From Gammaproteobacteria bacterium (GTDB lineage: Bacteria > Pseudomonadota > Gammaproteobacteria > Arenicellales > Poriferihabitantaceae): a stretch of DNA of 64,000 bases. Numbering within the stretch: position 1 is the first letter of the stretch; each line of letters opens with the position of its first letter. The notes under the pieces are model-generated. The model was given only the letters and a program-made list of their open reading frames with translations. It had not been told where the DNA came from and ran no database searches. The translations under genes and the position numbers were made by a program. Shown piece after piece: positions 4,073-59,031 of the stretch. Location: the NCBI GenBank assembly GCA_024644945.1, contig JAHEGU010000006.1:39143-103142 (forward strand). The letters are read 5' to 3'.

Positions 4073-4080
4073 ACAATTTA

Positions 4081-5467: not shown

Positions 5468-5479
5468 TACATGTTTTAA

Positions 5480-5493: not shown

Positions 5494-5512
5494 CTTTACA
5501 GCTGTTTCTGCG

Positions 5513-5541: not shown

Positions 5542-5595
5542 CATTTCTGCTTGTCTTCTAATAGCCGAGCCGCCCACAACCCACAACGACTAGCA

Positions 5596-7245: not shown

Positions 7246-7280
7246 GATTTATACAATTTTATATACGAGAGAATTCAATC

Positions 7281-8723: not shown

Positions 8724-8737
8724 GGAAGAAAAACACA

Positions 8738-9925: not shown

Positions 9926-10442
9926 CCCAGTCAAATACAGTGGTATACGCTTGCCGAAGGGCTACGCCGATATCGATGTACCCTTTTCGGACCTCGATGA
10001 GCCCTTTGTGCATGCGATTTCAGTGGGTTGGGGCGACTGCGATCCTGCACAAATCGCCTATACCGCGAATATTCCAGCTTGGAGCTTGCGGGGTATTGAA
10101 GCCTGGTACAAAGCCTGTCTCGGCATTGACTGGTACGTGATAAATCTACATTTCGGCATCGGAACACCCTTTGTTTCACTTAATTTTGAGTTTAAATCGC
10201 CTATAACACCGTTGGGGGATCTTCTGATTTCTGTCTATGTGGACAGATTAGGAGGGTCCTCTATCAGTCATTGTGTAGAAGGCCATCAGAACGGGGCGCT
10301 GTGTTTCACAGGGATAACCGTGGCGGCATTCGTAGATGCTTCGACAATGAAACCAATGCCAATACCGCCAAATATGCGGCAAAGCATTCAACATTACGCG
10401 CAGATTCAGAATCGTGAATATACAAGCGGAAAACATTGCTGA
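9909..10442 (+). CDS. hotdog-fold acyl-CoA thioesterase (4HBT/YbgC-like), probable benzoyl-CoA thioesterase
   Basis: 177 aa. The segment GWGDCDPAQIAYTANIP matches the 4HBT-type catalytic Asp region. The ATG overlaps the boxA 3' end by 17 nt. A thioesterase is known in box clusters (Azoarcus). Confidence 0.65.
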   Translation: MSKPTDPVKYSGIRLPKGYADIDVPFSDLDEPFVHAISVGWGDCDPAQIAYTANIPAWSLRGIEAWYKACLGIDWYVINLHFGIGTPFVSLNFEFKSPITPLGDLLISVYVDRLGGSSISHCVEGHQNGALCFTGITVAAFVDASTMKPMPIPPNMRQSIQHYAQIQNREYTSGKHC

Positions 10443-11310
10443 AACTGATCTCGGAAAAGCCCAACAATTTCTATTTCAAGTGGGGAGCCGAGTTAGAGCC
10501 GCTCGAAGTCGAGCCGGTCTTACCCGCAAACAGCTATCACAGGCATGCGGCGTTTCAGAACGTCATCTTGCCCAGGTCGAAACCGGCAAAGGCAATATTT
10601 CAATCCGATTGCTGCGCCAGATTGCGGCTGCAATCCAGACACCTGTGGAGCAACTAGTCCGGCAGGATGGCGACTTAGAAGAAATGTCGATGCTTATAGA
10701 CCGCATTGGCAAACTCGACCGCGCTGAAATGATGGAGCTACTGAACCAGGTAGACCAATGGATGGTCGAACGCAAATCCCAGGACAAGCAGGGCCGCATC
10801 GCTCTTATCGGTCTCAAGGGGGCAGGTAAAAGTACCATTGGCGCTCGTTCAGCACAGCAGCTTAGTATCCCGTTTATCGAGCTTGATAACGAGATCACTC
10901 GCGAGAGCGGACTATCCGTAGAAGAAATTTTTTCGCTTTATGGAGAACAGCGCTATCGAGAGCTGGAATCCGAATGTCTAAAAAAAGTTATTGCCCAGAA
11001 CCAGCGGTTTATCTTAACCGTTGCTGGAGGGATCGTCTCTAACCTCGATACCTATACAGAGCTACTCAGATCCTTTCATACCGTGTGGCTTAGCGCAGCA
11101 CCGGAAGAACATATGGGCCGGGTGATGGCTAACGGCGATCGCAGAGCAGTGGAAGGCAATCCTGATGCAATGGATAATTTGAAAGCTTTACTCGCAACCC
11201 GCCAGTCATTGTACAAGCGAGCACAATTTCAGTTAGAAACCAGCAATAAAGGCATCAGCGAATGCGGTGAAGAGTTAACAAAGTTGATTCAGCCTTTAAT
11301 TCGATCCTAA
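10414..11310 (+). CDS. boxR: BoxR/BzdR-type regulator (XRE HTH + shikimate-kinase-like domain)
   Basis: 298 aa. N-terminal HTH (LTRKQLSQACGVSERHLAQVETGKGN) and a C-terminal P-loop GLKGAGKSTIG with a shikimate-kinase-like fold. The GTG start overlaps the thioesterase 3' end. Confidence 0.75.
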   Translation: MNIQAENIAETDLGKAQQFLFQVGSRVRAARSRAGLTRKQLSQACGVSERHLAQVETGKGNISIRLLRQIAAAIQTPVEQLVRQDGDLEEMSMLIDRIGKLDRAEMMELLNQVDQWMVERKSQDKQGRIALIGLKGAGKSTIGARSAQQLSIPFIELDNEITRESGLSVEEIFSLYGEQRYRELESECLKKVIAQNQRFILTVAGGIVSNLDTYTELLRSFHTVWLSAAPEEHMGRVMANGDRRAVEGNPDAMDNLKALLATRQSLYKRAQFQLETSNKGISECGEELTKLIQPLIRS

Positions 11311-39827: not shown

Positions 39828-41255
39828 GTGCCACCTGACGCATCTACTATCTCGAATCGATTACCGCAGAGGCTGCTCGCGCTATCAATGTTAATACTGA
39901 TGCTATCGGTATTGATCGCACGTCATGATCCAGGAAAGCTGTTTGCCTTACTGTCTTATATTGCAATGGCCCTGGTGGCCCTGCTGTCAATTAGAAAAAT
40001 CGGGATCAGGGAAACCTATCTGTTAATTATCAGCGGATTGCTGTCCATCACAGTTTGTCTTGAGCACCCAGAACCATTGCATGCCTTTCAGGCCTCCCTC
40101 GATCAAGCAGCATTCATGATGGCCTTCATTCTGCTGCTTGGACTACTGTATGAAGCGGCGGTCAATTCACCAGCAATAACCGAATGCGGTCGCTACATCA
40201 CCAGGCAGCCGCCGGGGCGGCGTTTCGTATCACTTTATCTCGGTACTGGACTGATGTCGGTATTATTCAATCTTGGTGTCATCAGTCTGCTTACTCCCTT
40301 AATTCAAAGTGGTGTCAGAACCGTCAATCCGGGAGATCCACTTAATCCAATTCGGGAACGGCGTCAGCTGGTAGCGGTTCAACGGGGATTTGCATGGGGT
40401 ATTATCTGGTCACCCACGGCTCTGGCACCACTGACGATTCTCGACCTGGTGCCGGGTATCGACAGATCACGATGGATCTTGTTCGGTTTTATCATCGCCT
40501 CGATAGCCATGGTTATTGGATGGCTGGAAGATTATCTGCGGTTTCGCTACATCAGTCGCGCCAGAAAGACTCCTCGACCGACTCCCCCTGCTTTACCGCG
40601 CAGTGCACTGCTTCGATTTACCGCTGCTTTTTTCTGGCTGCTTTCCTTGACTCTTTGCTTCAGCTATACGTCAAACGACACTGTAGTATTCGGATTAATG
40701 TTGGCGTGCCCATTCATGATGCTTGGCTGGCTGTTAGCGCAGCAGGGATTTGTTGCAGGTGCGGTGTCACGTGCAAAAAAACAGCTAGGAATAGTGGTGT
40801 TTGAGAATCTGCCTCACGCCGCACCAGTATCCATCACCTTAGCCTGTTCCGGATTCATCGGTCGTGCGGCGGCGGCTCTGGTGCCCGCAGATCAGCTGAT
40901 CGCTGCCGCTGGTATCGATTTATTTCCCAACTACGTATTCCTTTCCCTACTGCCGCTGGCAATCACGTTGTTGTCTTTCATGGCGCTGAGTCCTATCGTC
41001 ACTTCGGTATTCCTTGGAAGTGTGCTGGGCAGTCTCGACGTCTTGCCTATTGATGCCACCTTGCTAGCTATCTCGATTTCCTGCGGATGGGCACTAGCCA
41101 TGACGGTGTCTCCTTTTGTGACATTGGTTCTGGTCATGGTGCGCGCGTCCGGACATACAGGGATAACGCTCTCGCTGAAGTGGAATTTTGGATTTGCACT
41201 GATGTCGGCACTCATGCTGTTTCCAATATTCTGGATTCTCACTGGTGGACGTTGA
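39828..41255 (+). CDS. polytopic membrane protein of unknown function
   Basis: 475 aa, about 12 hydrophobic segments, GTG start. I recognise no family signature. Confidence 0.5.
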   Translation: MPPDASTISNRLPQRLLALSMLILMLSVLIARHDPGKLFALLSYIAMALVALLSIRKIGIRETYLLIISGLLSITVCLEHPEPLHAFQASLDQAAFMMAFILLLGLLYEAAVNSPAITECGRYITRQPPGRRFVSLYLGTGLMSVLFNLGVISLLTPLIQSGVRTVNPGDPLNPIRERRQLVAVQRGFAWGIIWSPTALAPLTILDLVPGIDRSRWILFGFIIASIAMVIGWLEDYLRFRYISRARKTPRPTPPALPRSALLRFTAAFFWLLSLTLCFSYTSNDTVVFGLMLACPFMMLGWLLAQQGFVAGAVSRAKKQLGIVVFENLPHAAPVSITLACSGFIGRAAAALVPADQLIAAAGIDLFPNYVFLSLLPLAITLLSFMALSPIVTSVFLGSVLGSLDVLPIDATLLAISISCGWALAMTVSPFVTLVLVMVRASGHTGITLSLKWNFGFALMSALMLFPIFWILTGGR

Positions 41256-41528: not shown

Positions 41529-41867
41529 ATGAAACAAGAAGATAAATTGCAACGACGAGAGTTCGTCAAGCTTGCTGTTGGCTCTGCGGTCGTCGTGCCA
41601 TTTTTAACCACTAACCAGGCTTTAGCCGGCGGGCACATGCCTCGGGTCGATGAAAGCGACCCGCAAGCTACTGCGCTAGGATACAAGCACGACAGCACTG
41701 CAGTAGACGGCTCCGCCTACGCTAATCATGAGGCGTCCCAGATTTGCTCTGGCTGCAATCTTTATCAGGGCAAGGAAGGCGACGAATGGGGCCCCTGTTC
41801 GATTTTTCCTGGCAAGGAAGTAGCCGCGGCAGGATGGTGTTCCGCCTTTGTTCCCAAGCCAAGTTAA
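41529..41867 (+). CDS. high-potential iron-sulfur protein (HiPIP) with Tat signal
   Basis: 112 aa. RREFVKLAVGSAVVVPF twin-arginine signal, and the Cys pattern CSGC...WGPC...GWC typical of HiPIP. Confidence 0.85.
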   Translation: MKQEDKLQRREFVKLAVGSAVVVPFLTTNQALAGGHMPRVDESDPQATALGYKHDSTAVDGSAYANHEASQICSGCNLYQGKEGDEWGPCSIFPGKEVAAAGWCSAFVPKPS

Positions 41868-41932: not shown

Positions 41933-43045
41933 TCACATTGGCAAACCCGTCACTTTGCCCTCCCTGACCACTCGATCCTCACCCTCAACCAAAACCCGCT
42001 GTTGTTCCTCCCAGTAACCTCTTTCGATCATTGCCAAACCAACATTGGTCTTAAAACGCGGCGACCAGATCGCGCTGGTGACGTAACCAACGGGTTCGTC
42101 ATCGATCCTGACCGGCCACGGTATCGAACACGGCGGACAACGTTCTTGACCAAACTTGACGCCCCGGATGCTTCGTTCCGGCCCTGTCGCATAAATCTTC
42201 TGAAGTGCTTCACGTCCTATAAAATTTATGGATCCGTCAAGCTGGCAAAAGCGCTCAAGCCCGCATTCCAGGGGATTGTTATCAAGAGTCATCTCGTTGC
42301 CATAGGAAAGCAATCCCGCCTCGATTCGCTCAATCAAGTTAGGACAGCCGGGGGACACTTCCAGCCCTTGGCCTGCTTGCCACAAATTCGACCATAAACG
42401 ATCTCCTAGTTTGGGCTGATCGAGGTAAATTTCAAATCCTCCCTGTTTACTGAATCCCGACCGGGCGATAACCAGCGGCTGAGATTCAAAATCGAACCTA
42501 TCGAAAGTAAAAAACTTGAGTTTCCTGATCGCCTGGCCAAACACCTCCGCCATCAGATCATCCGCTTTCGGCCCCTGCACAGCCATGGGCCAGACGTCAG
42601 GTTCGCTAACTTCGACCTCGAGTCGCAGGCCATAGGAAAGCCCCTTGGCCCACAACAGCACATCGGAATCCGCCAACGATAACCAGTATCGATCGGCACT
42701 TAATTTAAGGATGACCGGATCATTTAACATACCTCCGTTATGGTCGACTAACGGTGCATAGAGGCACTGCCCGACAAAAGCGTTGCCGAGATCCCGCGGT
42801 GTCATCAGCTGCATCAGCTTAGTGGCGTCAGGTCCTTTAACCTCTACCTGTCGCTGACAACCAACGTCCCACAGTTGAACATGCTCGCGCAGATGCCAAT
42901 AGTCCTCTTCCACGCTACGGCTAAATCCCTTGGGCAAAATAGTGTGATTTACCACGGTGTATCCCGACACCCCGTGTTTCTCCACCTGCCTTTTATAAGG
43001 CGTGGAACGGATACGGCGGGAGCTCGCTAGCGTTAGAGAAGTCAT
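41933..43045 (-). CDS. dmdA: GcvT-family aminomethyltransferase, DmdA (DMSP demethylase)-like
   Basis: 370 aa. Segments RRIRSTPY...GVSGYTVVNHTILP, HVQLWDVGCQRQVEVKGPDA, VIARSGFSKQGGFEIY and CPNLIERIEAGLLSYGNEM closely resemble what I recall of characterised DmdA rather than canonical GcvT. Not verified by alignment. Confidence 0.6.
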   Translation of the reverse strand: MTSLTLASSRRIRSTPYKRQVEKHGVSGYTVVNHTILPKGFSRSVEEDYWHLREHVQLWDVGCQRQVEVKGPDATKLMQLMTPRDLGNAFVGQCLYAPLVDHNGGMLNDPVILKLSADRYWLSLADSDVLLWAKGLSYGLRLEVEVSEPDVWPMAVQGPKADDLMAEVFGQAIRKLKFFTFDRFDFESQPLVIARSGFSKQGGFEIYLDQPKLGDRLWSNLWQAGQGLEVSPGCPNLIERIEAGLLSYGNEMTLDNNPLECGLERFCQLDGSINFIGREALQKIYATGPERSIRGVKFGQERCPPCSIPWPVRIDDEPVGYVTSAIWSPRFKTNVGLAMIERGYWEEQQRVLVEGEDRVVREGKVTGLPM

Positions 43046-43057
43046 GAAGGCTCAGGA

Positions 43058-43414
43058 CTATTCAGACCACCATACGGTATAAGAATGCGGCGAGAGAATC
43101 ACCGGAATGTGATAACGCTGCTCACGCGCAACCATTGAAAACCGGATCACCACTTGTTTCAAATGTTGTGCCATATTTTCGATCTTGTGCATGTCAACAA
43201 AGTATTGGTGCCCGTAGACCACCATTTCAAACAACTGCTCCGAGTCTCCGTCGACAATCTCAACGGACTCAGCTATGCGTCCCTGTTCATCGCTAACTAC
43301 GTCGAACACGATCTTGTTCTCCAGCTCTGAACTCACGCCTAACAGCTGGACCCGGATGCCGCAGGCCGATTTTCCGCTAACGGCGTCGAGGATATGGGAA
43401 GATAATTCTGGCAT
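43058..43414 (-). CDS. transthyretin-fold protein (5-hydroxyisourate hydrolase family-like) lacking the C-terminal YRGS motif
   Basis: 118 aa. N-terminal SSHILDAVSGKSA and C-terminal RYHIPVILSPHSY fit the HIUase/TTR fold. The protein ends ...TVWWSE instead of ...YRGS. Confidence 0.7.
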   Translation of the reverse strand: MPELSSHILDAVSGKSACGIRVQLLGVSSELENKIVFDVVSDEQGRIAESVEIVDGDSEQLFEMVVYGHQYFVDMHKIENMAQHLKQVVIRFSMVAREQRYHIPVILSPHSYTVWWSE

Positions 43415-43436
43415 GTTGAACTAAGGTCTTCTCTGC

Positions 43437-45152
43437 TTATTCGATCGAAGCTTTATCGCGTTTGCTGGTTGTTGCCAGTACGATTGGACTGATATATCCC
43501 TTTGTCTTAACGTTGACACAAGCAGTCTTACCGCTATCAATAGCCCGCTTTAGAGCAGGCAACAGTTGCTCGGGACGTTCTACAAGTTCGCCGTGACCGC
43601 CCAGGCCCTCGAACATGTTATGAAACGGTATATCCCGAAAGTCGGTTGCAAAGTGATCTCCTGTCTCAAACATGCGCTCCTGCTGCTGAGAAATACAGTC
43701 GAGACCACCATTGTTGTCAATTACCACAACAATAGGCAGTTTCTCCTGAAACGCCGCCTCGACACTTAATCCCCCTGACAGGAACGCACCATCTCCGCTA
43801 ATCAGCACTATGTTTGAATCAGGGTTGTTCATCTTTGCTGCGATTGCAAACGATACGCCTACTCCAAGCATACTGAAGGTGCCGGGATGTAAAATACTAC
43901 CCAGCTTCTGCCCTCGCCAGCCGGCGATATTGACCGCAATCTCCGACCAGAAGTGCGTATTCCCCCCATCAATAACCAGCCAGTCATCTTTGCTCAATAC
44001 CGACTGTACCTCTAGCGCCAGACGCAACGGGTGAAGCAGTCCGTCAGACTCTTCCAGGGATGGAATATCTTTCTCCGTTTGTACCACCCACGCCTCTCTT
44101 TTCCGGCGGTTAAGTTCCATCCACTCCTGACTCCATTGGCGTTCATTTTCTAGACTTAAAATCGCATCCAGAAACGCGCCGGGATCACTCAGTAATTGCA
44201 CATCCGCCGGCCGGTTGTGTTCTAGCTCTTCATGGGAGCCGTTAATGCAAACCAGTTTTGTTGTATCCGGAAAAAAAGGCGGGTTACCAAAATTCATCTG
44301 ATTATCCAAACGCGCGCCGATCATCAACACAAGGTCAGATTCCTGGATCGCAAATTTCGACGGTGCGTATTGATGAAAATCTGCAAGACCCATGTAAGCC
44401 TCGCTCTCTTCCCCCAGGAGCTTCTGATGGTAAGGCACATTGAAAACAGGGATTCCAAGCAGCTTTCCTGCCTGCTCGAGCTTGGCTTCCGCGCCAGACC
44501 ACCAGACGCCATGACCACCGATTAACACTGGACGCATGGCTTGGCGCACTAACTCGAGCACGAATTCCAGATCCTGTGGATCGGGCCACGCTTTAGGAGG
44601 GGCAGTAAATCCTCTTGTGAAAGGGCGCTCTTCACGTCCCACGTCCTCCTCGAACGAACTGAACATAATGTCAACCGGCACGCTCAAGTGGACTGGACCG
44701 GGGTATCCACTGAGCGCAATTCTGAAAGCGCGGTCAACAAATTCAGGAATTCTCTCACCATCGGTGACCTGAGCGCTGTACTTAGTCAGAGGTGCTGCAA
44801 TCGCGACGTCGTCGATCTCCTTAAAGCCCCCGGAACCTTGGCGCCTCAGAGTACTCGAACCGGTCACAAAAATCACCGGAGAGCGCTCACCCCAGGCCTC
44901 CATCATAGAAGGGATTGCGTTGGCGAATCCCTCGGGTCCCACCAGGCACACCGCAGGATGACGGGTGATGCGGGTGTAACCGTCTGCGAGATGACCCGCC
45001 ACCTGTTCGTGGGGAGCATTGATCACCGGGATGCCGCAGGTCATAAATCCTTCAAGTGCTGGATTACAAAAACCACCACTCAGAGTAAATACCTGCTTCA
45101 CTCCTTTCTCTTTAAACGCACGCGCAAGTAGCATGCCCCCACGGATTTTCAT
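43437..45152 (-). CDS. thiamine-diphosphate-dependent enzyme of the ALS/POX/oxalyl-CoA decarboxylase/BFD family
   Basis: 571 aa from the ATG at 45152 (ATGA overlap with the upstream gene). Three-domain layout, N-terminal HEQVAGHLADGY, and ThDP motif GDGAFLSGG...VVVIDNNGG. Confidence 0.85.
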   Translation of the reverse strand: MKIRGGMLLARAFKEKGVKQVFTLSGGFCNPALEGFMTCGIPVINAPHEQVAGHLADGYTRITRHPAVCLVGPEGFANAIPSMMEAWGERSPVIFVTGSSTLRRQGSGGFKEIDDVAIAAPLTKYSAQVTDGERIPEFVDRAFRIALSGYPGPVHLSVPVDIMFSSFEEDVGREERPFTRGFTAPPKAWPDPQDLEFVLELVRQAMRPVLIGGHGVWWSGAEAKLEQAGKLLGIPVFNVPYHQKLLGEESEAYMGLADFHQYAPSKFAIQESDLVLMIGARLDNQMNFGNPPFFPDTTKLVCINGSHEELEHNRPADVQLLSDPGAFLDAILSLENERQWSQEWMELNRRKREAWVVQTEKDIPSLEESDGLLHPLRLALEVQSVLSKDDWLVIDGGNTHFWSEIAVNIAGWRGQKLGSILHPGTFSMLGVGVSFAIAAKMNNPDSNIVLISGDGAFLSGGLSVEAAFQEKLPIVVVIDNNGGLDCISQQQERMFETGDHFATDFRDIPFHNMFEGLGGHGELVERPEQLLPALKRAIDSGKTACVNVKTKGYISPIVLATTSKRDKASIE

Positions 45153-46258
45153 TTTTGTACGATCACTGAGTGATTGATCTGCTGAATTCCGGTACAACCT
45201 ATTTGCGCCATGGTGACACTGATCTCATTGCGCACAAGGTCTATCACCCGCTGGAGTCCATGCTCCCCATCAGCCCCCAGCCCATAAAGCAGAGAACGAC
45301 CCAGCATCACGAAACTCGCGCCCAGGGCGAGCGCCTTGACCACGCCTTCTCCACCTCGAATACCGCTATCAAAAAGCATTGGATAATCAGGCCCTAGAGC
45401 TTCACGCAGCAGCGGCAGCATGTCAATGGCAGCCGGTGCTGCGTCAAGTTGACGGCCGCCATGATTAGAGACATAAATTGAATCAATACCGGTGTTCTGA
45501 ATTCGTAACGCATCCTCGACAGACAGCACACCTTTAACGATCAGACGCCCTTTCCATCGACGCCGCAGGCGATCAAGAAACTCCCAGTCGACCAGACCCC
45601 GGCCGCCATCACGGTAAAACTCTCCCGGGGAAAAATTAGCCAGACTGGGCGCACCTGCCAACAACGTTTTTACAGACCAGCCGGGATGCAATGCAAAATC
45701 GACAATCTGCCTGACCCCGATTCGAAGCGGTGCTTCAAATCCATTTTTAAGATCACGGACCCGTGGCGCAACTTGCGGGACATCGACTGTAAGAATCAAT
45801 GTGGTATAGCCCGCGTCTTCGACGCGCTGCACAAGTTGCATGGCTTGGGATTCAGATTGCCCTACGTAGAGCTGAAACCAGCCGTTTTCTGGGATCCATT
45901 GTGCGACCTGTTCGAGGCTGGTGGAAGACATCGTGGACAGCGCCATCGGAATATCAAACTTTTTCGCCGCATCTGCCAACATCCGATCCGCATCTGGCCA
46001 AGTGAGATTGCACATCCCCATCGGTGCGATGCCGAAAGGAAGACCCCAGTCCCGATCAAGAAATCGAGTGCTAAGATCTCGCTGCGCCACATTCACCAAC
46101 ACTCTGGGTAGCAGTCGCAATTGCTGAATTTTCTCCTGATTCAGGCCATTGGCGTACTCGGCACCGGCGGCACCATCGACACAATCAAACATGATTTTCG
46201 GCATACGACGCCTGGCGTAACGGCGTGCGTCAGCGATGCAGTGAATCGGTTTTGCCAT
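45149..46258 (-). CDS. FMN-dependent alpha-hydroxy-acid dehydrogenase/oxidase (LldD/glycolate oxidase/mandelate dehydrogenase family)
   Basis: 369 aa from the ATG at 46258. Motifs VSNHGGRQLD, FDSGIRGG and PFGIAPMG. Confidence 0.85.
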   Translation of the reverse strand: MAKPIHCIADARRYARRRMPKIMFDCVDGAAGAEYANGLNQEKIQQLRLLPRVLVNVAQRDLSTRFLDRDWGLPFGIAPMGMCNLTWPDADRMLADAAKKFDIPMALSTMSSTSLEQVAQWIPENGWFQLYVGQSESQAMQLVQRVEDAGYTTLILTVDVPQVAPRVRDLKNGFEAPLRIGVRQIVDFALHPGWSVKTLLAGAPSLANFSPGEFYRDGGRGLVDWEFLDRLRRRWKGRLIVKGVLSVEDALRIQNTGIDSIYVSNHGGRQLDAAPAAIDMLPLLREALGPDYPMLFDSGIRGGEGVVKALALGASFVMLGRSLLYGLGADGEHGLQRVIDLVRNEISVTMAQIGCTGIQQINHSVIVQK

Positions 46259-51035: not shown

Positions 51036-52589
51036 CTATAACGGCAAAGGTTCCAGCCGTGGCTCATCGGTTTTGAGCCCTTCTTTACGCTTGACCACAT
51101 AGGCTTCAAGCTCCTCCACGATAGCGGGATCGATAGCCGGGGCTTCGAAATCCTCAAGCACTTTCTGCCATAGCTCCGTAGCACGCATGGTTGCATCCTT
51201 GGCTCCTGCTGCCTGCCAGTTCTCGTTGTTCTGCCAGTCACTTAAGAACGGTTCGTAAAAGGCAGTCTTGTATCGCGCCATGGTATGCCCACAGCCGAAG
51301 AAATGGCCTCCCGGTCCCACCTCCTGCATGGCTTCCAGACCAAGCTCCGCATCGTTAACCTCAATCGGTCGCAGAAGGTAACTCATGTGTTGCAGCATTT
51401 CGCAGTCCATCACAACTTTTTCAAAAGAAGCAACCAATCCACCCTCAAGCCAGCCGGCCGCGTGATAAATCAGATTACCGTGACCCATCACTGCACCCCA
51501 AAGCGCCATCTGCGTCTCCCAGACCGCCTGTCCATCCACTGTATTGGACGCGTTGCACCCACTCGTGCGGTAAGGCAACCGGTAACGACGGGCGAGCTGA
51601 CCGCCGGCCATATTAGCTAAAGAGTTTTCCGGGGTACCAAAGGCCGGTGCACCGGAACGCATATCAACATTGGAGGTAAAACCTCCATACACTACCGGCG
51701 CGCCGGGTCGGGTCAACTGCAACAGGCAGATACCGAGCAACGCCTCTGCATTCTGCTGCGCCAACGCAGCGGCCATCGTAGCCGGCGTCATCGCCCCCAT
51801 CAGGGTAAACGGTGTCACCGTTACCGGCTGACCCAGCATCGCGAGTTGCATCGCCCCATATGCCATGGAGTCGTCAAGCTTGCGAGGCGAGTTAATATTG
51901 ATATTAGTCATCACCGTTGGATGCTCGATCATTTGATCAAGACTAAGACCTTTCGCAATTGCCGCCATTGCCACTGCATCATGGACACGACCACCGCCAA
52001 TACCGATAGTGAAAAAAGGTTTATCGCTTAAAGTCAAATTAACTAGCGTGGTGTCCAGGTGACGACTGTTGGGTGGCAGATCAGTCGTCGCCACCCCCTG
52101 GGTCCCGATAAAACTGATCACATTGAAATACTGACCCAGACTGATAATTTTTTTGTAGTCGGCAAAGTTACCGGGCCGGCGGCCATTAATACAGTCGTGC
52201 ACATTGGGTGGTCCTGACACCAGACCGAAATTAATGCTGTTGCCACCGCAGTGTATAGTATTTTCCGGGTTTCGAGGGGTCACGCTGAACTCGGCCGGCG
52301 CACATGAAACCGTTTCCATTACTAATCCCCGATCCATCTTGACTATGCCGTCGGTAACCTCGGCGCCCGCTTTTCGAAATACATTCAGTGCCTGATCTCC
52401 CAGCACCTCGATGCCTTGCTGCTCGAGTATGTGCATCGAGGCCTCGTGGATTTTTTCCAGCTGCTCTTCGTTCAGGGGCTCTACGGGCGCCAGTCGACTC
52501 GTCAGCCTGGTTTTCTCCAGTTGCCGAATAGTGGGCGTCGGCTCGCTTGTTTCTGGTTCACGCCGTCTGCGGCGACCCGCACGCGCCAT
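51036..52589 (-). CDS. MttB-superfamily (trimethylamine methyltransferase-like) protein, non-pyrrolysine type
   Basis: 517-aa uninterrupted ORF with no in-frame TAG. Family-typical N-terminus LNEEQLEKIHEASMHILEQQGIEV and overall size. Confidence 0.8.
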   Translation of the reverse strand: MARAGRRRRREPETSEPTPTIRQLEKTRLTSRLAPVEPLNEEQLEKIHEASMHILEQQGIEVLGDQALNVFRKAGAEVTDGIVKMDRGLVMETVSCAPAEFSVTPRNPENTIHCGGNSINFGLVSGPPNVHDCINGRRPGNFADYKKIISLGQYFNVISFIGTQGVATTDLPPNSRHLDTTLVNLTLSDKPFFTIGIGGGRVHDAVAMAAIAKGLSLDQMIEHPTVMTNININSPRKLDDSMAYGAMQLAMLGQPVTVTPFTLMGAMTPATMAAALAQQNAEALLGICLLQLTRPGAPVVYGGFTSNVDMRSGAPAFGTPENSLANMAGGQLARRYRLPYRTSGCNASNTVDGQAVWETQMALWGAVMGHGNLIYHAAGWLEGGLVASFEKVVMDCEMLQHMSYLLRPIEVNDAELGLEAMQEVGPGGHFFGCGHTMARYKTAFYEPFLSDWQNNENWQAAGAKDATMRATELWQKVLEDFEAPAIDPAIVEELEAYVVKRKEGLKTDEPRLEPLPL

Positions 52590-52803: not shown

Positions 52804-53430
52804 TCAGTTAGTTTTTACCGCGGCATCTCTATAGGGCCTATAAACATAATATTTAGGTCTGTCATCTAACCGCACGTGCAACCATGCCACCCCACCACCA
52901 GCGGTATTCAGCCATAGCGGCCTATCACCAAGACGTTGCTGCACGCAGGCGCCTACTAGCTGCCAAAATGAATGTAACTGTTGAGCAGGCGCCGTTTTTA
53001 AAAAAGACAGGAGATGGCTGTAGGCCGAGTCGTCATCAACTGGACCTGGCAAGATCATGATCGCGTCACCCCCTAAATTCGGGAACGCCCCAACACCACT
53101 ATCGTCGATCCGCCTAAAAAGAGCGCGAAAGGTTTCCTTGTCAGCGCTTCCTTTCAATCCCGGACTATTCAGCACTGCACATTCAAATGGACCGTCCGCT
53201 GAGTGGGTAGTTAAAGGTGGAAATTCCCATCGTATCGCCGGGTAAGGAAGACCGGTAAGAAGTGTCGTGAAATAGTCTCGAAACACCCCCTTGTTAACCC
53301 ACATGGCAAAAACATCCCGGTAGGAAAGGACCGCATCGCCGCAGGTGATAGAGATTAACTGCCCCTCGATGCCCTTTAATTCCCGACTCGTATGACTATA
53401 CATGGAAGACTGAGAGGATTCGTTTGACAA
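52804..53430 (-). CDS. hypothetical protein, no family recognised
   Basis: 208-aa ORF (start at the TTG at 53430 or the ATG at 53403). Soluble, with distinctive IRWEFPPL and FPNLGGDAIMILPGP segments. Confidence 0.45.
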   Translation of the reverse strand: MSNESSQSSMYSHTSRELKGIEGQLISITCGDAVLSYRDVFAMWVNKGVFRDYFTTLLTGLPYPAIRWEFPPLTTHSADGPFECAVLNSPGLKGSADKETFRALFRRIDDSGVGAFPNLGGDAIMILPGPVDDDSAYSHLLSFLKTAPAQQLHSFWQLVGACVQQRLGDRPLWLNTAGGGVAWLHVRLDDRPKYYVYRPYRDAAVKTN

Positions 53431-53709: not shown

Positions 53710-54831
53710 TTACTCAGTCCCGGCACGCTCCAGCGCTCGCGCCAAATATTGATGGAAGTCCCAAACTGTTCCTTCCATATCCGGAGGCGCAAGTGGGCCA
53801 GGCACTTGAAATCGGGAGCCCATTCCATACTGAACCTGCTCAAGCACTTCTTTATCTTCCTGCATCGTATCCTGGAACAGTTTTATAGCGTTGTCTATCT
53901 GCTTCTGGTGCCATTGATCACCATAAAAAATCAACCCGATTTTAACTCGTACTTTGTCGATAGCCTCAGGCCTGATGCATAGAAACGAGCTGTAGTCACT
54001 GCCGATTCCAACGGTCAGCCCAGGTGGTATAGCAAACATTACACAGGTATCCATTTCTGCCTCAGACAGATCTGGATGACCAATACGATCCTCGGGGAGC
54101 CTGGTGCTGAATCCAACCTTGTATCCAAAATAAGCGGTTCCAGGTGCTAATTGTTGGCACAGGCTGGTGGGATTTACCTTATGAAGCGTGTTTCTGTGCA
54201 GTGGCGAGAGATGATAGCCCTCCATGAAATTCTCAACCAGTGTCTTCCAGTTTACCGGCCAGGTCTCATCGGACAGATATCGAAGCTGCATTTGTTCCAG
54301 ATGATAGTTGCCGATCTCCACATCCAGCGGGGCCAGCAACGCATGAAGATCCGGCGGGGACGAGGATAGAGACACGAAAAGGAAACCCTGCCATGTTTCA
54401 CAAGCCAGCTGCGGCAGGCGGCAGTTTGCCAGGTCGTAGTGGCTTGAAGGTTCTATTAACGGCGCGTTCACCAACTTGCCTGTAGTGTCATAGGCCCAAT
54501 GGTGATAGGGACAAAGCAGACTTTTAACATTGCCGGAATCTTTTAAGATGACAGTACCGCGGTGGCGACAGACGTTCGACAGCGCCCGAATCACCCCATC
54601 ATGGCTGTGAATCACTAATATCGGCTCAGAAGCAAGATCAAAGGTAATGTAATCTCCACTCTTATTAATTTCTTCCTCACGCCCGACGCAGATCCAGTGC
54701 TGCGCAAACAGTCTTTCTCGTTCGATATCTAGCCACTCCGTGTCGGTGTAAAAAGCACCGGGCAGGGACAATGCCTCAGCATAAGGTTTATCTTTTATTG
54801 CTCTTAAAACATCAAGAAATTCCGGTTTCAA
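53710..54831 (-). CDS. Rieske non-heme iron oxygenase alpha subunit, CntA/GbcA/choline-monooxygenase-like
   Basis: 373 aa. CRHRG-x16-CPYHHW Rieske motif, mononuclear iron motif NFMEGYHLSPLH, and size close to CntA. TTG start with GGGAG 9 nt upstream. Confidence 0.8.
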   Translation of the reverse strand: MKPEFLDVLRAIKDKPYAEALSLPGAFYTDTEWLDIERERLFAQHWICVGREEEINKSGDYITFDLASEPILVIHSHDGVIRALSNVCRHRGTVILKDSGNVKSLLCPYHHWAYDTTGKLVNAPLIEPSSHYDLANCRLPQLACETWQGFLFVSLSSSPPDLHALLAPLDVEIGNYHLEQMQLRYLSDETWPVNWKTLVENFMEGYHLSPLHRNTLHKVNPTSLCQQLAPGTAYFGYKVGFSTRLPEDRIGHPDLSEAEMDTCVMFAIPPGLTVGIGSDYSSFLCIRPEAIDKVRVKIGLIFYGDQWHQKQIDNAIKLFQDTMQEDKEVLEQVQYGMGSRFQVPGPLAPPDMEGTVWDFHQYLARALERAGTE

Positions 54832-57950: not shown

Positions 57951-58988
57951 ATGACTGAACTGGTTTTCAAAGGCTTTTCCGGACTGCAGAAAGTTGTAGA
58001 AAAGATAACCTCAGTGTGGACATTGATCTTGTTGATCCCGCTCATTGTGGCGCTGGTCGATGTCACACAGGTGAATCAGATAATTCGGCTGGCGAGTGAA
58101 GCGCTGGTCGGCACACTTCCATTTATTTTAATTGCAGTTCTGTTGGTGGCTTTGCTTAAAGCGAGCAGCGCCGAGTCGCTAGTTGCCAGAGTGTTTGAGG
58201 GGAAGGAAAACAGGATGATCATATTGGCTGCCCTGTTTGGTGGTCTGGCCCCGTTTTGTTCGTGTGAAGTGATTCCATTCATTGCCGGGTTACTGGCTGT
58301 AGGCGCACCGCTCTCGGCAGTAATGGCATTTTGGCTTTCTTCCCCTCTGATTGATCCAGCAGGTCTGATGATTACTGCCGGGGCATTAGGCTGGGAATTC
58401 GCGGTTGGAAAGACAGTCGCGGCAGTCTGTCTAGGGCTCATCGGTGGCTTTGCGATTCGATTTGCCAGCCGACATGGGGTATTCAATCATCCTCTAAAAG
58501 ATCATGGTGTCGACGGCGGGTGTGGCTGTGGTCCCTCTCCTTTTCAGGGCAAACCGTCCTGGCGCGTATGGAAGGACCCAGAGAGATTATCTGTTTTCAG
58601 AGACCAGGCATCCGAAAATGCTGGGTTTTTAATTAAGTGGCTGGCATTTGCATATCTTCTTGAGGCGCTCTTAATCACTTACGTTCCCGCCCAGACCATT
58701 GCCGGAGTTGTCGGTGGAGAAGGGCTGTTTCCAATCATAATTGGGGCATTGGTCGGCGCCCCCGCATATCTCAACAGCTATGCGGCACCGCCACTGGTAG
58801 CCGGACTGATGCAGCAGGGGATGACTGCGGGAGCGGCGATGGCATTTATGGTTGCGGGCGCAGTCAGCTCAATCCCTGCGATGGCTGCGGTTTGGTCGTT
58901 GGTGAGGCTATCTGTGTTTCTTGTATATATCGGATTTGGGATCTTCGGTGCCATTGTCATCGGTTTGTTTTACGAAGTGTTGGTATAA
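57951..58988 (+). CDS. PF03773-type permease (ArsP-like)
   Basis: 345 aa polytopic protein. The APFCSCEVIPF motif matches the conserved CSC-containing segment reported for ArsP organoarsenical efflux permeases. Confidence 0.7.
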   Translation: MTELVFKGFSGLQKVVEKITSVWTLILLIPLIVALVDVTQVNQIIRLASEALVGTLPFILIAVLLVALLKASSAESLVARVFEGKENRMIILAALFGGLAPFCSCEVIPFIAGLLAVGAPLSAVMAFWLSSPLIDPAGLMITAGALGWEFAVGKTVAAVCLGLIGGFAIRFASRHGVFNHPLKDHGVDGGCGCGPSPFQGKPSWRVWKDPERLSVFRDQASENAGFLIKWLAFAYLLEALLITYVPAQTIAGVVGGEGLFPIIIGALVGAPAYLNSYAAPPLVAGLMQQGMTAGAAMAFMVAGAVSSIPAMAAVWSLVRLSVFLVYIGFGIFGAIVIGLFYEVLV

Positions 58989-59031
58989 ATTTAACTCACA
59001 TCAAGGAATCCAGAGATGGATTGATCAAGGA

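What the first reader, a model, noticed from the sequence alone, without database searches (positions are those of the whole stretch)
43058..43414. Transthyretin-fold protein without the HIUase YRGS tail, embedded in a non-purine operon
Seen: the N-terminal HILD and C-terminal YHIPVILSPHSY segments fit the 5-hydroxyisourate hydrolase/transthyretin fold, but the protein ends TVWWSE. Established: bacterial HIUases are diagnosed by a C-terminal Y-R-G-S tetrapeptide that forms part of the active site, and they sit with urate-catabolism genes. Inference: this is a neofunctionalised TTR-fold protein, either an enzyme or a ligand-binding subunit for the adjacent ThDP or GcvT-family enzymes. No uricase, OHCU decarboxylase or allantoinase gene occurs in the window.
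Basis: partly seen in the sequence, partly recalled or inferred. Interest (0 to 1): 0.55.

Follow-up and report, generated by a model that had tools for sequence, protein, structure and literature searches.

The report
Repurposed transthyretin-fold protein in dmdA operon
This small gene is annotated everywhere as a uric-acid-pathway enzyme, but it belongs to a large, undescribed branch of that family that sits between a thiamine-dependent enzyme and the DMSP demethylase gene in many marine bacteria, including Pelagibacter, so it probably marks an uncharacterised step in ocean sulfur metabolism.

Summary
Window 43058-43414 (minus strand) encodes a 118-aa transthyretin/HIUase-fold protein ending TVWWSE.

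- **Family fit:** It passes Pfam PF00576 but fails the curated HIUase model (63.7 bits against a cutoff of 87.45).
- **Active site:** It keeps the HIUase His/Arg/His core (H7, R46, H102). Tyr-Arg-Gly-Ser is replaced by Trp-Trp-Ser plus a variable tail.
- **A clade, not an oddity:** 376 distinct relatives share W115 (100%), W116 (91%) and S117 (98%). They split cleanly from YRGS enzymes even when the tail is left out of the tree.
- **Gene context:** Of 69 non-redundant loci with both flanks readable, 58 show ThDP enzyme, then this gene, then a DmdA-model protein. Median gaps are about 7 nt, and an FMN 2-hydroxyacid dehydrogenase usually lies upstream.
- **Hosts:** Many marine Gammaproteobacteria, some Comamonadaceae, and low-GC plankton loci assigned to Pelagibacter on indirect evidence.
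- **Purine link:** No purine-catabolism genes accompany it.

My best reading is a cytoplasmic, probably tetrameric enzyme acting on a carboxylate, probably sulfonium, intermediate between the ThDP enzyme and DmdA. The substrate is unknown. A regulatory small-subunit role remains possible. I found no publication describing this clade.

The parts
43058..43414 (-). Transthyretin/HIUase-fold gene of the W-W-S clade (118 aa, stop codon included)
   Evidence: ORF. Pfam PF00576 at 65.5 bits. TIGR02962 below cutoff. AF2 model pLDDT 88.9 and Foldseek TM about 0.8 to HIUases. dN/dS 0.17-0.27.
43061..43072 (-). Codons for W115-W116-S117-E118, in the columns of the HIUase Y-R-G-S tetrapeptide
   Evidence: Alignments. 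W115 is in 376/376, W116 in 344/376 and S117 in 370/376 clade members. The last residue is variable, and 0-12 residues follow W-x-S.
43394..43396 (-). Codon for His7, equivalent to kpHIUH His7 / PucM His14
   Evidence: Present in 363/376 clade members and 31/31 YRGS enzymes. Catalytic role in HIUase described in PMC8272043.
43277..43279 (-). Codon for Arg46, equivalent to kpHIUH Arg41 / PucM Arg49
   Evidence: Present in 368/376 clade members and 31/31 YRGS enzymes. Oxyanion/carbonyl binder in HIUase.
43109..43111 (-). Codon for His102, equivalent to kpHIUH His92 / PucM His105
   Evidence: Present in 376/376 clade members and 31/31 YRGS enzymes. Proposed general base in HIUase.
43085..43087 (-). 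Codon for His110, a clade-specific residue where HIUases have Trp/Tyr/Phe. Residue 16 is Ser here, where HIUases always have Pro.
   Evidence: Pair 16/110 is (H,N) 212, (S,H) 75, (H,H) 59 and never (S,N). MI-APC does not single the pair out.
43415..43436 (-). 22-nt spacer between the ThDP gene stop and the transthyretin-fold gene start
   Evidence: Sequence. No promoter-like or terminator-like site falls in the spacer, and site counts across the operon do not exceed chance. Median spacer across 84 clusters is 6.5 nt.
43046..43057 (-). 12-nt spacer between the transthyretin-fold gene stop and the dmdA-like gene start
   Evidence: Median spacer across clusters is 8 nt.
43437..45152 (-). ThDP-dependent enzyme (571 aa from the ATG at 45152; a longer TTG start at 45197 is possible), unassigned subfamily
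   Evidence: Pfam TPP_enzyme_N/M/C. Below every NCBIfam cutoff, best 305 of 587. Nearest solved structures are 2-hydroxyacyl-CoA lyase/synthase, oxalyl-CoA decarboxylase and benzaldehyde lyase. 62-100% identical across full-length genome-locus matches, mostly 69-85%. dN/dS 0.05. Gene callers use the 571-aa start.
45149..46258 (-). FMN-dependent 2-hydroxyacid dehydrogenase/oxidase (369 aa). Its stop overlaps the ThDP start by 4 nt.
   Evidence: Pfam FMN_dh at 397 bits. Nearest solved structures are L-lactate oxidase and (S)-mandelate dehydrogenase. Present upstream in 47 of 63 clusters with enough flank.
41933..43045 (-). DmdA-type GcvT-family methyltransferase (370 aa)
   Evidence: NCBIfam NF009133 (DMSP demethylase) at 556.5 bits, cutoff 410. 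394 bits to P. ubique DmdA 3tfh. Immediately downstream of the transthyretin-fold gene in 70 of 76 clusters. Six cassette copies from other taxa score 531-566 bits on the same model.

Best explanation
The gene encodes a cytoplasmic protein of the transthyretin/HIUase fold, and I infer from the fold that it is a homotetramer. It is no longer a 5-hydroxyisourate hydrolase. It belongs to a distinct, old and widespread clade (motif [SA]P[HN][SG]YS[VTI]-W-W-S plus a variable tail). That clade is a fixed component of an operon: [FMN 2-hydroxyacid dehydrogenase] - ThDP enzyme - this protein - DmdA.

Shown:
- The fold, and the retained His7/Arg46/His102 core.
- Replacement of Tyr-Arg-Gly-Ser by Trp-Trp-Ser.
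- Separation of the clade from YRGS enzymes.
- Purifying selection.
- Tight, taxon-independent synteny.

Inferred:
- As in HIUases, the site lies at the dimer-dimer interface and is built from two chains.
- Arg46 binds a carboxylate or carbonyl.
- The histidines (H7, H102, and a third His at position 16 or 110) do acid-base or metal-assisted chemistry.
- The Trp pair gives an aromatic pocket suited to a dimethylsulfonium or similar cationic or hydrophobic group.

My preferred role is an enzyme that converts or stabilises the product of the ThDP enzyme, on a route that starts from a 2-hydroxy acid and ends at the DmdA demethylation step. One example route is 4-dimethylsulfonio-2-hydroxybutyrate -> 2-oxo acid -> ThDP step -> this protein -> DMSP -> MMPA.

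My probabilities:
- Not an HIUase, and functionally tied to the ThDP/DmdA operon: about 0.9.
- Catalytic rather than only ligand-binding: about 0.55.
- Substrate is a DMSP-related sulfonium or thioether acid: about 0.5.
- The specific DMSHB route: about 0.15.
For: Fold and family:
- PF00576 match, AF2 model pLDDT 88.9, and Foldseek top hits to HIUases 4q14, 8uw4, 2h0e and 3qva at TM about 0.8.

Not an HIUase:
- TIGR02962 score is 63.7, below the 87.45 cutoff.
- Y, R and G of YRGS become W, W and S, and the C-terminus varies in length.
- In HIUases the Tyr of the tetrapeptide contacts substrate, and the terminal carboxylate of Ser108 bridges Arg41. Deleting the tetrapeptide greatly suppresses catalysis (PMC8272043).
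- The Tyr-to-Phe mutant of the S. dublin enzyme is inactive (PMC4324301).

Core retained:
- H7 363/376, R46 368/376, H102 376/376.

Distinct clade:
- The exhaustive HMM search ranks W-type sequences above YRGS types.
- An NJ tree built without the tail columns separates 31 YRGS from 145 W-clade representatives in one split.
- Other clade-specific switches: P16 to H/S, F84 to I/V/M, W/Y/F110 to H/N, and loss of G60.

The tail is not a retrieval artefact:
- The metagenome scan used the pattern HIP[IVL]I[LI]SPN, which does not include the tail. 73 of the 82 proteins extracted from L084-L165 still carry WWS.

Synteny:
- Of 84 clusters at 80% identity, 69 have both flanks readable. Of those, 58 have ThDP and DmdA, 3 ThDP only, 7 DmdA only, and 1 neither.
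- Median gaps are 6.5 and 8 nt.
- Even tail variants without WW sit in the same cassette.

Context is organosulfur and methyl-group metabolism:
- DmdA-model scores of 531-566 bits in six taxa.
- SBP56 (methanethiol-oxidase family) next to the pair in three loci.
- MTTB, homocysteine S-methyltransferase and GcvH/P nearby.

A 2-hydroxy/2-oxo acid step is frequent:
- FMN_dh upstream in 47/63 clusters. An ApbA/PanE-type reductase takes its place directly upstream of the ThDP gene in L021 and L052.

Other:
- No signal peptide: residue 7 aligns with His7 of mature HIUases.
- Precedent for a ureide-pathway fold reused in DMSP metabolism: DsyD, a ureidoglycolate-lyase-like DMSHB decarboxylase (PMC11306096).
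- Precedent for metal binding in this fold: E. coli TLP with bound Zn, 2g2n.
Against: - No biochemical data exist, and the substrate is a guess.
- The cassette holds no aldehyde dehydrogenase or CoA ligase. A simple 2-oxo acid decarboxylation to an aldehyde therefore does not lead to DMSP without another enzyme.
- The ThDP enzyme's nearest solved relatives act on acyl-CoA thioesters, which the DMSHB scheme does not use.
- FMN_dh is absent from about a quarter of loci.
- Accessory genes differ between lineages, so no single pathway fits all contexts.
- The two biochemically characterised DmdA enzymes are reported without any partner protein (PMC5395565). At least the HTCC1062 dmdA locus, as described in PMC3160333, lists mhpC, fadD and mmgC as neighbours rather than this gene.
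- The cassette DmdA copies are only 43-57% identical to the P. ubique enzyme, so they may use another substrate.
- The third-His pattern is not supported as a contact by MI-APC (rank 261 of 6441). It may reflect just two lineage events.
- The protein evolves faster than its neighbours: 27-53% identity between lineages against about 60-85% for the ThDP enzyme. That pattern fits an accessory subunit as well as an enzyme.
Confidence: 0.6

Rival explanations
1. It is a non-catalytic small subunit of the ThDP enzyme. On this reading it activates or regulates the enzyme and binds an effector in the old HIUase pocket, much as the small ACT-domain subunit encoded just downstream of the acetohydroxyacid synthase large subunit does.
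For: - The gene lies immediately downstream of the ThDP gene in 66 of 74 clusters, with a median gap of 6.5 nt.
- The ThDP enzyme belongs to the acetolactate-synthase superfamily.
- It is much more conserved than this protein: dN/dS 0.05 against 0.17-0.27, and about 60-85% against 27-53% identity. Large and small AHAS subunits show the same asymmetry (my own knowledge).
- ThDP plus this gene occur without DmdA in L040/L045, L047 and L085.
Against: - 7 of 69 clusters have the gene next to DmdA with no ThDP gene adjacent.
- The near-invariant His/Arg/His constellation is the catalytic set of the parent enzyme. Such sets usually decay in pure regulatory pseudoenzymes.
- The fold is unrelated to ACT domains.
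Confidence: 0.2
2. It is an accessory of DmdA. It would be a carrier or delivery protein for DMSP or for the folate cofactor, compensating for the very high Km of DmdA.
For: - DmdA lies immediately downstream in 70 of 76 clusters, with a median gap of 8 nt.
- The pair persists without the ThDP gene in Granulosicoccaceae and Halioglobus loci (L041, L057, L059, L067, L078).
- Characterised DmdA enzymes have Km values of 5.4 and 13.2 mM for DMSP (PMC5395565).
- The fold binds bicyclic and aromatic ligands in its relatives (purine analogues, thyroxine), and pterins are similar in shape (inference).
- A Trp pair would suit cation-pi binding of a sulfonium group (inference).
Against: - The characterised DmdA enzymes are reported without any partner, and at least the HTCC1062 dmdA locus does not list this gene among its neighbours.
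- This reading does not explain the equally tight link to the ThDP gene.
- The catalytic residues are retained.
Confidence: 0.12
3. It is still a 5-hydroxyisourate hydrolase, or acts on a close purine analogue, with an unusual tail. All public annotation calls it this.
For: - It is a member of PF00576 with His7/Arg46/His102 kept.
- Source names are uniformly '5-hydroxyisourate hydrolase'. These names are automatic.
Against: - It scores below the curated equivalog cutoff.
- The Tyr whose Phe mutant is inactive is replaced by Trp in all 376 sequences, and the position of the terminal carboxylate is not conserved.
- None of the 40 window ORFs scanned is a purine-catabolism gene.
- None of the recurrent neighbour clusters that I annotated by Pfam, across about 150 loci, is a purine-catabolism family.
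- The clade separates from YRGS enzymes even without the tail columns.
Confidence: 0.03
4. It is a decaying or functionless remnant carried along in the operon.
For: It is the least conserved gene of the four.
Against: - dN/dS is 0.17-0.27.
- The reading frame is intact in about 150 loci from different orders.
- W115, H102 and P104 are invariant across 376 sequences.
- It is kept in the low-GC, Pelagibacter-like loci. Streamlined genomes of that kind rarely keep dead genes (my own knowledge).
Confidence: 0.02

Closest known systems
5-hydroxyisourate hydrolase (HIUase; PucM, kpHIUH, E. coli/Salmonella TLP; TIGR02962)
   Same: Same fold and length, and same Pfam family. The same His/Arg/His residues sit in the same columns. 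A homotetramer with the site at the dimer-dimer interface is presumed.
   Different: YRGS is replaced by WWS plus a variable tail. The score is below the equivalog cutoff. Other invariant HIUase residues have switched (P16, F84, G60, aromatic 110). There is no purine gene context. It forms a separate clade.
Vertebrate transthyretin
   Same: Another case in which the HIUase fold lost hydrolase activity. Replacing the Tyr of the C-terminal tetrapeptide was one key step there (PMC4324301). Structural similarity is TM about 0.78.
   Different: Transthyretin is a secreted hormone carrier with the catalytic histidines and arginine lost. Here the protein is bacterial and cytoplasmic, the catalytic core is kept, and Tyr becomes the bulky Trp rather than the small Thr.
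DsyD domain of DsyGD (DMSHB decarboxylase)
   Same: A fold from the ureide (purine-degradation) pathway recruited into DMSP-related metabolism. DsyD resembles ureidoglycolate lyase, PF04115 (PMC11306096).
   Different: It has an unrelated fold and is biosynthetic. DsyGD as a whole is reported as confined to Gynuella and some cyanobacteria. No sequence relationship to this protein.
Small subunit of acetohydroxyacid synthase (IlvN/IlvH)
   Same: A small protein encoded directly after an acetolactate-synthase-superfamily ThDP subunit, and less conserved than that subunit.
   Different: IlvN/IlvH have an ACT-domain fold, not a transthyretin fold. Their role is known to be regulatory. Here catalytic-type residues are conserved.
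alsS-alsD pair (catabolic acetolactate synthase followed by alpha-acetolactate decarboxylase)
   Same: A gene-order analogy: a ThDP carboligase followed by a small enzyme that processes its product. To my knowledge, that small enzyme uses three histidines plus an arginine around a metal. The clade here keeps H7, H102, a third His at position 16 or 110, and R46.
   Different: No homology. The resemblance is recalled from my own knowledge and has not been tested. No evidence here for a metal or for decarboxylation.

Membership tests
Pfam PF00576 HIUase/Transthyretin superfamily | Profile match above the gathering score over the whole domain | tested here: met
   65.5 bits against cutoff 25.3, residues 4-115 on profile positions 1-107 of 109.
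Pfam PF00576 HIUase/Transthyretin superfamily | Transthyretin beta-sandwich fold | tested here: met
   AF2 model pLDDT 88.9, pTM 0.83. Foldseek TM 0.72-0.84 to HIUases and transthyretins.
5-hydroxyisourate hydrolase (EC 3.5.2.17; TIGR02962 equivalog) | Score at or above the curated equivalog cutoff | tested here: not met
   63.7 bits against cutoff 87.45. NF011610 gives 24.6 against 217.
5-hydroxyisourate hydrolase (EC 3.5.2.17; TIGR02962 equivalog) | Catalytic His, Arg, His (kpHIUH His7, Arg41, His92) | tested here: met
   H7, R46 and H102 align to these residues. Roles taken from PMC8272043.
5-hydroxyisourate hydrolase (EC 3.5.2.17; TIGR02962 equivalog) | C-terminal Tyr-Arg-Gly-Ser tetrapeptide that ends the chain | tested here: not met
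   The window protein has W-W-S-E. The 31 YRGS representatives have Y 100%, R 97%, G 100% in these columns. The clade has W/W/S followed by 0-12 further residues.
5-hydroxyisourate hydrolase (EC 3.5.2.17; TIGR02962 equivalog) | Genomic association with urate oxidase, OHCU decarboxylase or allantoin genes | tested here: not met
   None among the 40 window ORFs scanned. None among the annotated recurrent neighbour clusters of about 150 loci.
5-hydroxyisourate hydrolase (EC 3.5.2.17; TIGR02962 equivalog) | Hydrolysis of 5-hydroxyisourate | not testable with these tools
   Needs an enzyme assay.
Transthyretin (vertebrate hormone distributor) | Secreted vertebrate protein with an open central channel and the HIUase catalytic residues lost | tested here: not met
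   Bacterial operon context. No N-terminal extension before His7. The catalytic residues are kept.
Proposed W-W-S clade of PF00576 (not a curated family) | Motif [SA]P[HN][SG]YS[VTI]-W-W-S in place of SP[WYF][SG]YSTYRGS | tested here: met
   SPHSYTVWWSE in the window protein. W115 is in 376/376, W116 in 344/376 and S117 in 370/376.
Proposed W-W-S clade of PF00576 (not a curated family) | Gene lies between a ThDP enzyme of one conserved subfamily and a DmdA-model gene | tested here: met
   Window order is 45152-43437 ThDP, 43414-43058 this gene, 43045-41933 DmdA. The same order holds in 58 of 69 clusters.
Acetohydroxyacid synthase small (regulatory) subunit | ACT-domain fold | tested here: not met
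   The fold is a transthyretin beta-sandwich.
Acetohydroxyacid synthase small (regulatory) subunit | Physical complex with the ThDP large subunit and modulation of its activity | not testable with these tools
   Only single-chain structure prediction was available. Needs co-purification or a multimer prediction.

The most novel reading that the evidence does not exclude
The W-W-S transthyretin-fold proteins would be a third functional class of this fold, after HIU hydrolases and hormone carriers. They would be a new enzyme catalysing an undescribed step in a widespread marine organosulfur pathway. That pathway would feed a 2-hydroxy or 2-oxo sulfonium or thioether acid (for example the algal metabolite DMSHB) through an FMN dehydrogenase and a ThDP enzyme into DmdA-type demethylation, in Pelagibacter and many marine Gammaproteobacteria.
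Probability: 0.35. Interest if true: 0.9.

Novelty: new variant of a known kind. Interest (0 to 1): 0.72.

Why it matters
DMSP demethylation is described as the route for the vast majority of oceanic DMSP catabolism (PMC6850173 abstract), and dmdA is its marker gene. Here a large share of DmdA-model genes, including copies in low-GC loci assigned to Pelagibacter, turn out to be embedded in a conserved operon with three uncharacterised partners. One partner is mis-annotated everywhere as a purine-pathway enzyme.

If the cassette handles a substrate other than DMSP, or makes DMSP from a precursor, then environmental dmdA counts and sulfur-flux interpretations would need revisiting.

For protein evolution, it would be a second, independent repurposing of the HIUase active site. 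This one keeps the catalytic histidines and arginine but swaps the polar C-terminal tetrapeptide for a Trp pair.

At the least, the automatic name '5-hydroxyisourate hydrolase' for these proteins should be withdrawn. The low-GC type alone spans at least 713 clusters at 90% identity.

Tried and rejected
- **Literature:** Searches for dmdA or DMSP together with transthyretin or hydroxyisourate, and for dmdA with FMN/thiamine terms, found nothing relevant. SAR11_1265-1267 searches gave no link to this gene. The Reisch 2008 DmdA paper is not held, so I could not check whether DMSHB was ever tested as a DmdA substrate.
- **Metagenome scan:** The first alignment of divergent tail variants was too diverse to build search patterns. 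A closer subset worked.
- **Taxon names:** The listing of cluster members returned only automatic product names. The Pelagibacter assignment rests on one named ThDP homologue at 90% identity, plus 29-34% GC and extreme microdiversity.
- **Third-His idea:** The absence of any (Ser16, Asn110) combination looked like compensation. However, MI with APC ranks the pair only 261 of 6441, so I treat it as a possible lineage effect.
- **First tree test:** It was mis-scored because the root clade contains every sequence. I redid it as bipartitions with the tail columns removed.
- **Possible domain fusions:** P0093 (268 aa) and P0036 were inspected for a Rosetta-stone hint. By eye, the extra sequence showed no resemblance to the cassette proteins and gave no hint.
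- **Regulatory signals:** No promoter or terminator signal above chance within the operon. No Rfam riboswitch in or upstream of the operon in the window or in 8 related loci.
- **SAR11_1265 idea:** I considered that the Pelagibacter-type cassette copy might be SAR11_1265, which lies next to metF. The genes downstream of DmdA in the loci I could read are a thiolase, an enoyl-CoA hydratase, an aminotransferase or PhyH, not metF. This is left open.
- **Model coordinates:** They are not exposed by the tools. Distances between residues 16, 110, 115 and 116 and the catalytic residues could not be measured.
Full report
**1. The observation**

The ORF listing finds an ATG-initiated 118-aa ORF at window 43058..43414 on the minus strand. 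Its sequence is MPELSSHILDAVSGKSACGIRVQLLGVSSELENKIVFDVVSDEQGRIAESVEIVDGDSEQLFEMVVYGHQYFVDMHKIENMAQHLKQVVIRFSMVAREQRYHIPVILSPHSYTVWWSE.

It matches Pfam PF00576 (HIUase/Transthyretin) over the whole domain, at 65.5 bits against a cutoff of 25.3. It stays below the curated cutoff of the hydroxyisourate hydrolase equivalog TIGR02962, at 63.7 against 87.45.

An AlphaFold2 model built on 27 homologues is confident (mean pLDDT 88.9, pTM 0.83). Its best structural matches are solved HIUases (4q14, 8uw4, 2gpz, 2h0e, 3qva), followed by transthyretins, at TM about 0.72-0.84 and 19-27% identity.

**2. What has and has not changed in the active site**

In HIUases the site sits at the dimer-dimer interface. 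It is built from His7, Arg41, His92 and the C-terminal Tyr105-Arg106-Gly107-Ser108 of two chains. The Tyr contacts substrate, and the terminal carboxylate of Ser108 bridges Arg41. Deleting the tetrapeptide greatly suppresses catalysis (PMC8272043). The Tyr-to-Phe mutant of the Salmonella dublin enzyme is inactive (PMC4324301).

Alignment to solved HIUases and to 31 YRGS representatives gives this mapping:

| HIUase residue | Window protein |
|---|---|
| His7 / Arg41 / His92 | H7 / R46 / H102 (kept) |
| Tyr-Arg-Gly-Ser | W115-W116-S117-E118 |

Other residues that are invariant or nearly so in the YRGS set have also switched:
- P16 (100%) becomes S here, and H or S across the clade.
- F84 (100%) becomes I/V/M/H.
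- The aromatic residue at 110 becomes H or N.
- G60 (96%) is lost.
- The TNxDGR motif becomes [AT]DxEGR.

The protein starts seven residues before the first catalytic His. It therefore has no signal peptide, unlike the periplasmic enterobacterial enzymes.

**3. It is a clade, not a one-off**

A word-indexed search found 13 close homologues (50-100% identity), all ending in WWS plus 1-4 residues. An exhaustive profile search of 1.84 billion cluster representatives gave 1188 hits at E<=0.001. Among the best 150, W-type tails ranked above YRGS tails.

Pooling all sequences collected gives 376 distinct W-clade proteins:
- W115 in 376/376, W116 in 344/376 (otherwise K, M, S, C...), S117 in 370/376.
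- H102 in 376/376, R46 in 368/376, H7 in 363/376.
- Between 0 and 12 residues follow W-x-S.

The genome scan used a pattern that contained WW, so the tail there is true by construction. The metagenome scan used HIP[IVL]I[LI]SPN, which does not contain the tail. 73 of the 82 proteins extracted from L084-L165 still carry WWS.

A neighbour-joining tree built without the tail columns separates the 31 YRGS sequences from 145 W-clade representatives in a single split. Mean identity is 0.37 within the W clade, 0.46 within YRGS, and 0.28 between them.

dN/dS is 0.17-0.27 for this gene. The same genome pairs give 0.05 for the ThDP gene, 0.11-0.17 for dmdA and 0.08-0.14 for the FMN dehydrogenase gene.

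**4. Gene context in the window**

All four genes are on the minus strand.

| Coordinates | Product | Evidence |
|---|---|---|
| 46258-45149 | FMN-dependent 2-hydroxyacid dehydrogenase | Pfam FMN_dh 397 bits. Nearest structures are L-lactate oxidase and (S)-mandelate dehydrogenase. |
| 45152-43437 | ThDP enzyme, start overlapping the previous stop by 4 nt | Below every NCBIfam cutoff. Nearest structures are 2-hydroxyacyl-CoA lyase/synthase, oxalyl-CoA decarboxylase and benzaldehyde lyase. |
| 43414-43058 | The transthyretin-fold gene, after a 22-nt spacer |. |
| 43045-41933 | GcvT-family gene, after a 12-nt spacer | 556.5 bits on NCBIfam NF009133 'DMSP demethylase' (cutoff 410). 394 bits to the solved Pelagibacter ubique DmdA. 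|

No promoter-like or terminator-like signal above chance lies within the block. No Rfam element lies in or upstream of it.

Upstream lie YtoQ, an ornithine-cyclodeaminase-family gene, a sulfotransferase, a cation/proton antiporter, an MTTB-family methyltransferase, DUF6940 and a Rieske oxygenase.

None of the 40 ORFs I scanned, out of 58 of at least 90 aa, is a uricase, OHCU decarboxylase or allantoinase.

**5. Gene context elsewhere**

I collected about 150 loci. I located the four window proteins in each by tblastn. After dereplicating the transthyretin-fold protein at 80% identity there are 84 clusters.

| Test | Result |
|---|---|
| Clusters with both flanks readable | 69 |
| ThDP immediately upstream and DmdA immediately downstream | 58 |
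| ThDP only | 3 |
| DmdA only | 7 |
| Neither | 1 |
| Median gaps | 6.5 nt and 8 nt |
| FMN dehydrogenase upstream, where flank allows | 47 of 63 |

Two Granulosicoccaceae loci (L021, L052) have an ApbA/PanE-type 2-oxoacid reductase in place of the FMN dehydrogenase. In some SUP05-like and Acidiferrobacteraceae loci the same reductase follows DmdA or replaces it.

Across full-length genome-locus matches the ThDP enzyme is 62-100% identical to the window's, mostly 69-85%. The transthyretin-fold protein is 27-53% identical in lineages other than the window's own.

Even the most divergent tail variants sit in ThDP - transthyretin-fold - GcvT cassettes. I checked WMS, WKAG, WCA, and one with no Trp at all. 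Six cassette DmdA copies from different lineages score 531-566 bits on the DmdA model.

**6. Hosts and abundance**

The genome loci come from these groups:
- Metagenome-assembled genomes of Arenicellales, Granulosicoccaceae, Candidatus Poriferihabitaceae, Acidiferrobacterales, SUP05/Thioglobus, Halioglobus, Cellvibrionaceae and Thiolinea.
- Unclassified Gammaproteobacteria.
- Comamonadaceae.
- One bin labelled Haliangium.

The window's closest relative is labelled Arenicellales.

About 50 of the marine metagenome loci have 29-34% GC. The ThDP protein of one such locus has a 90%-identical homologue named 'Candidatus Pelagibacter sp.'. The transthyretin-fold protein of that type has 713 clusters at 90% identity. 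This microdiversity is typical of SAR11.

The Pelagibacter assignment is therefore indirect but likely. The cassette DmdA in these loci is only 43-57% identical to the characterised P. ubique DmdA, SAR11_0246. It is therefore a paralogue or a different subtype. SAR11 Ia genomes are known to carry a DmdA-like paralogue of unknown substrate, SAR11_1265 (PMC3160333). I could not show whether it is the same gene.

**7. Variable neighbours**

These differ by lineage, but most point to methyl-group and organosulfur metabolism:
- SBP56, the methanethiol-oxidase family, with a CoA-binding protein and a ferredoxin, directly upstream of the pair in L059, L078 and L079.
- MTTB-family methyltransferases, GcvH/GcvP/lipoyl synthase, ATP sulfurylase and a class-III aminotransferase.
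- Homocysteine S-methyltransferase.
- A SAM methyltransferase, isochorismatase, a dimethylformamidase-like protein, GNAT and malonyl-CoA decarboxylase, with a GntR regulator, in one gammaproteobacterial group.
- SBP_bac_5-type ABC transporters, a second GcvT-family gene, Peptidase_S51 and thiolase in the Pelagibacter-type loci.

None of the neighbour clusters I annotated is a purine-catabolism family.

**8. Interpretation**

Well supported:
- The protein is a real, selected member of the HIUase/transthyretin superfamily.
- It fails three defining features of HIUases: the tetrapeptide, the equivalog score and the purine context.
- It belongs to a separate clade whose constant partners are one ThDP-enzyme subfamily and DmdA.

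Inferred:
- It is a homotetramer with an interface site (by homology).
- R46 binds a carboxylate or carbonyl.
- The histidines act as acid/base or metal ligands. E. coli TLP binds Zn in this region (2g2n).
- The Trp pair forms an aromatic pocket. This would suit a dimethylsulfonium head group by cation-pi contacts, as in betaine- and DMSP-binding proteins (my own knowledge, not tested here).

The frequent presence of a 2-hydroxyacid/2-oxoacid oxidoreductase ahead of a ThDP enzyme recalls the mandelate dehydrogenase / benzoylformate decarboxylase logic. It suggests that a 2-oxo acid is the ThDP substrate.

A candidate that links this to DmdA is 4-dimethylsulfonio-2-hydroxybutyrate (DMSHB), an intermediate of algal and bacterial DMSP synthesis. 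I rate that specific route at only about 0.15, for three reasons:
- The cassette lacks an aldehyde dehydrogenase.
- The ThDP enzyme's nearest relatives use CoA thioesters.
- The FMN dehydrogenase is missing from a quarter of loci.

**9. Rivals**

- **Small subunit of the ThDP enzyme (about 0.2).** This fits the gene order and the conservation asymmetry. It fits less well with the seven clusters that lack an adjacent ThDP gene and with the retained catalytic set.
- **DmdA accessory that delivers substrate or folate (about 0.12).** This fits the tight DmdA link and the millimolar Km of known DmdA enzymes. It does not explain the ThDP link.
- **True HIUase (about 0.03) and functionless remnant (about 0.02).** Both are unlikely for the reasons given above.

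**10. Comparison with what is known, and novelty**

The closest known family is HIUase: same fold and core residues, but a different tail, clade and context. Transthyretin is the one known repurposing of this fold, and there too replacement of the tetrapeptide Tyr was a key step.

DsyD shows that another ureide-pathway fold was recruited into DMSP metabolism. I found no paper in the searchable library that links this fold with dmdA or DMSP. Every public name for these proteins is the automatic '5-hydroxyisourate hydrolase'.

I class it as a new variant of a known kind: an uncharacterised functional subfamily of a known fold, embedded in an uncharacterised but very widespread operon.

**11. Limits**

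- No biochemical evidence exists.
- Only single-chain prediction was possible.
- The Pelagibacter assignment is indirect.
- The third-histidine pattern (positions 16/110; at least one His in 361/376, never Ser+Asn) may be a lineage effect.
- Whole genomes could not be scanned for a separate canonical HIUase or a second dmdA.

Noticed in passing
window 51036-52589 (-), 52804-53430 (-), 53710-54831 (-): An MTTB-family methyltransferase (649 bits), a DUF6940 protein and a Rieske/Ring_hydroxyl_A oxygenase lie a few kb upstream of the cassette. The same trio appears in the close relative L009. This looks like a quaternary-amine or osmolyte demethylation module.
   Followed up: partly
window 13-11310 (+): A cluster resembling aerobic benzoyl-CoA (box-type) catabolism: an OYE-like reductase, enoyl-CoA hydratases, an AMP-forming ligase, a PaaA/PaaC-like 480-aa protein, a Fer4 + FNR-like reductase, and a shikimate-kinase/HTH regulator.
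   Followed up: no
window 17677-19887 (-): A 736-aa protein combining FAN1_HTH, VRR-NUC and RNase_T exonuclease domains. This is an unusual fusion for a bacterium.
   Followed up: no
window 39828-41255 (+) and 41529-41867 (+): A 475-aa ORF with no Pfam hit lies beside a HiPIP gene. The pair is conserved directly downstream of the cassette in L001, L005 and L009, and the 475-aa protein also recurs in L012 and L013.
   Followed up: partly
window 58921-61935 (+): A 1004-aa protein with PP-binding, AMP-binding and acyltransferase domains, resembling an acyl-ACP synthetase / lysophospholipid acyltransferase.
   Followed up: no
window 43367-43369 and 43085-43087 (residues 16 and 110 of the protein): Across 376 clade members the residue pair 16/110 is (His,Asn) 212 times, (Ser,His) 75 times, (His,His) 59 times, and never (Ser,Asn). 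So 96% keep at least one extra histidine where HIUases have Pro and an aromatic residue. MI-APC ranks the pair only 261 of 6441, so it may be a lineage effect.
   Followed up: yes
L059, L078, L079 (about 2-3 kb upstream of the transthyretin-fold gene): An SBP56-family gene (the family of methanethiol oxidase), a CoA_binding_2 protein and a 2Fe-2S ferredoxin sit directly upstream of the transthyretin-fold/DmdA pair. In L059 and L078 there is no adjacent ThDP gene.
   Followed up: partly
L111 3204-5101, 9527-10651; L159 2796-3770: Pelagibacter-type loci carry a second GcvT-family gene (206 bits on the DmdA model, below cutoff) and a Peptidase_S51 gene upstream of the cassette. A thiolase lies downstream. 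A homocysteine S-methyltransferase and an SBP_bac_5 ABC transporter are nearby.
   Followed up: partly
L043 1117-1216 (-): An Rfam PYLIS_3 (pyrrolysine insertion sequence of mttB) match at 50.9 bits (gathering score 38), at about the position where the syntenic relative L050 has its MTTB-family gene (L050 643-2265, -). Pyrrolysine use is not expected in this Arenicellales genome.
   Followed up: no
window 45149-45197: The mechanical ORF list starts the ThDP gene at a TTG (45197), overlapping the FMN dehydrogenase gene by 49 nt. Gene callers on homologous contigs use the ATG at 45152, which gives a 4-nt ATGA-type overlap typical of translational coupling.
   Followed up: yes
L079 5179-11580: One Cellvibrionaceae locus has two DmdA-model genes: FMN_dh - ThDP - DmdA - 195-aa ORF - transthyretin-fold gene - DmdA. 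This suggests a local duplication or a merger of two cassette halves.
   Followed up: no
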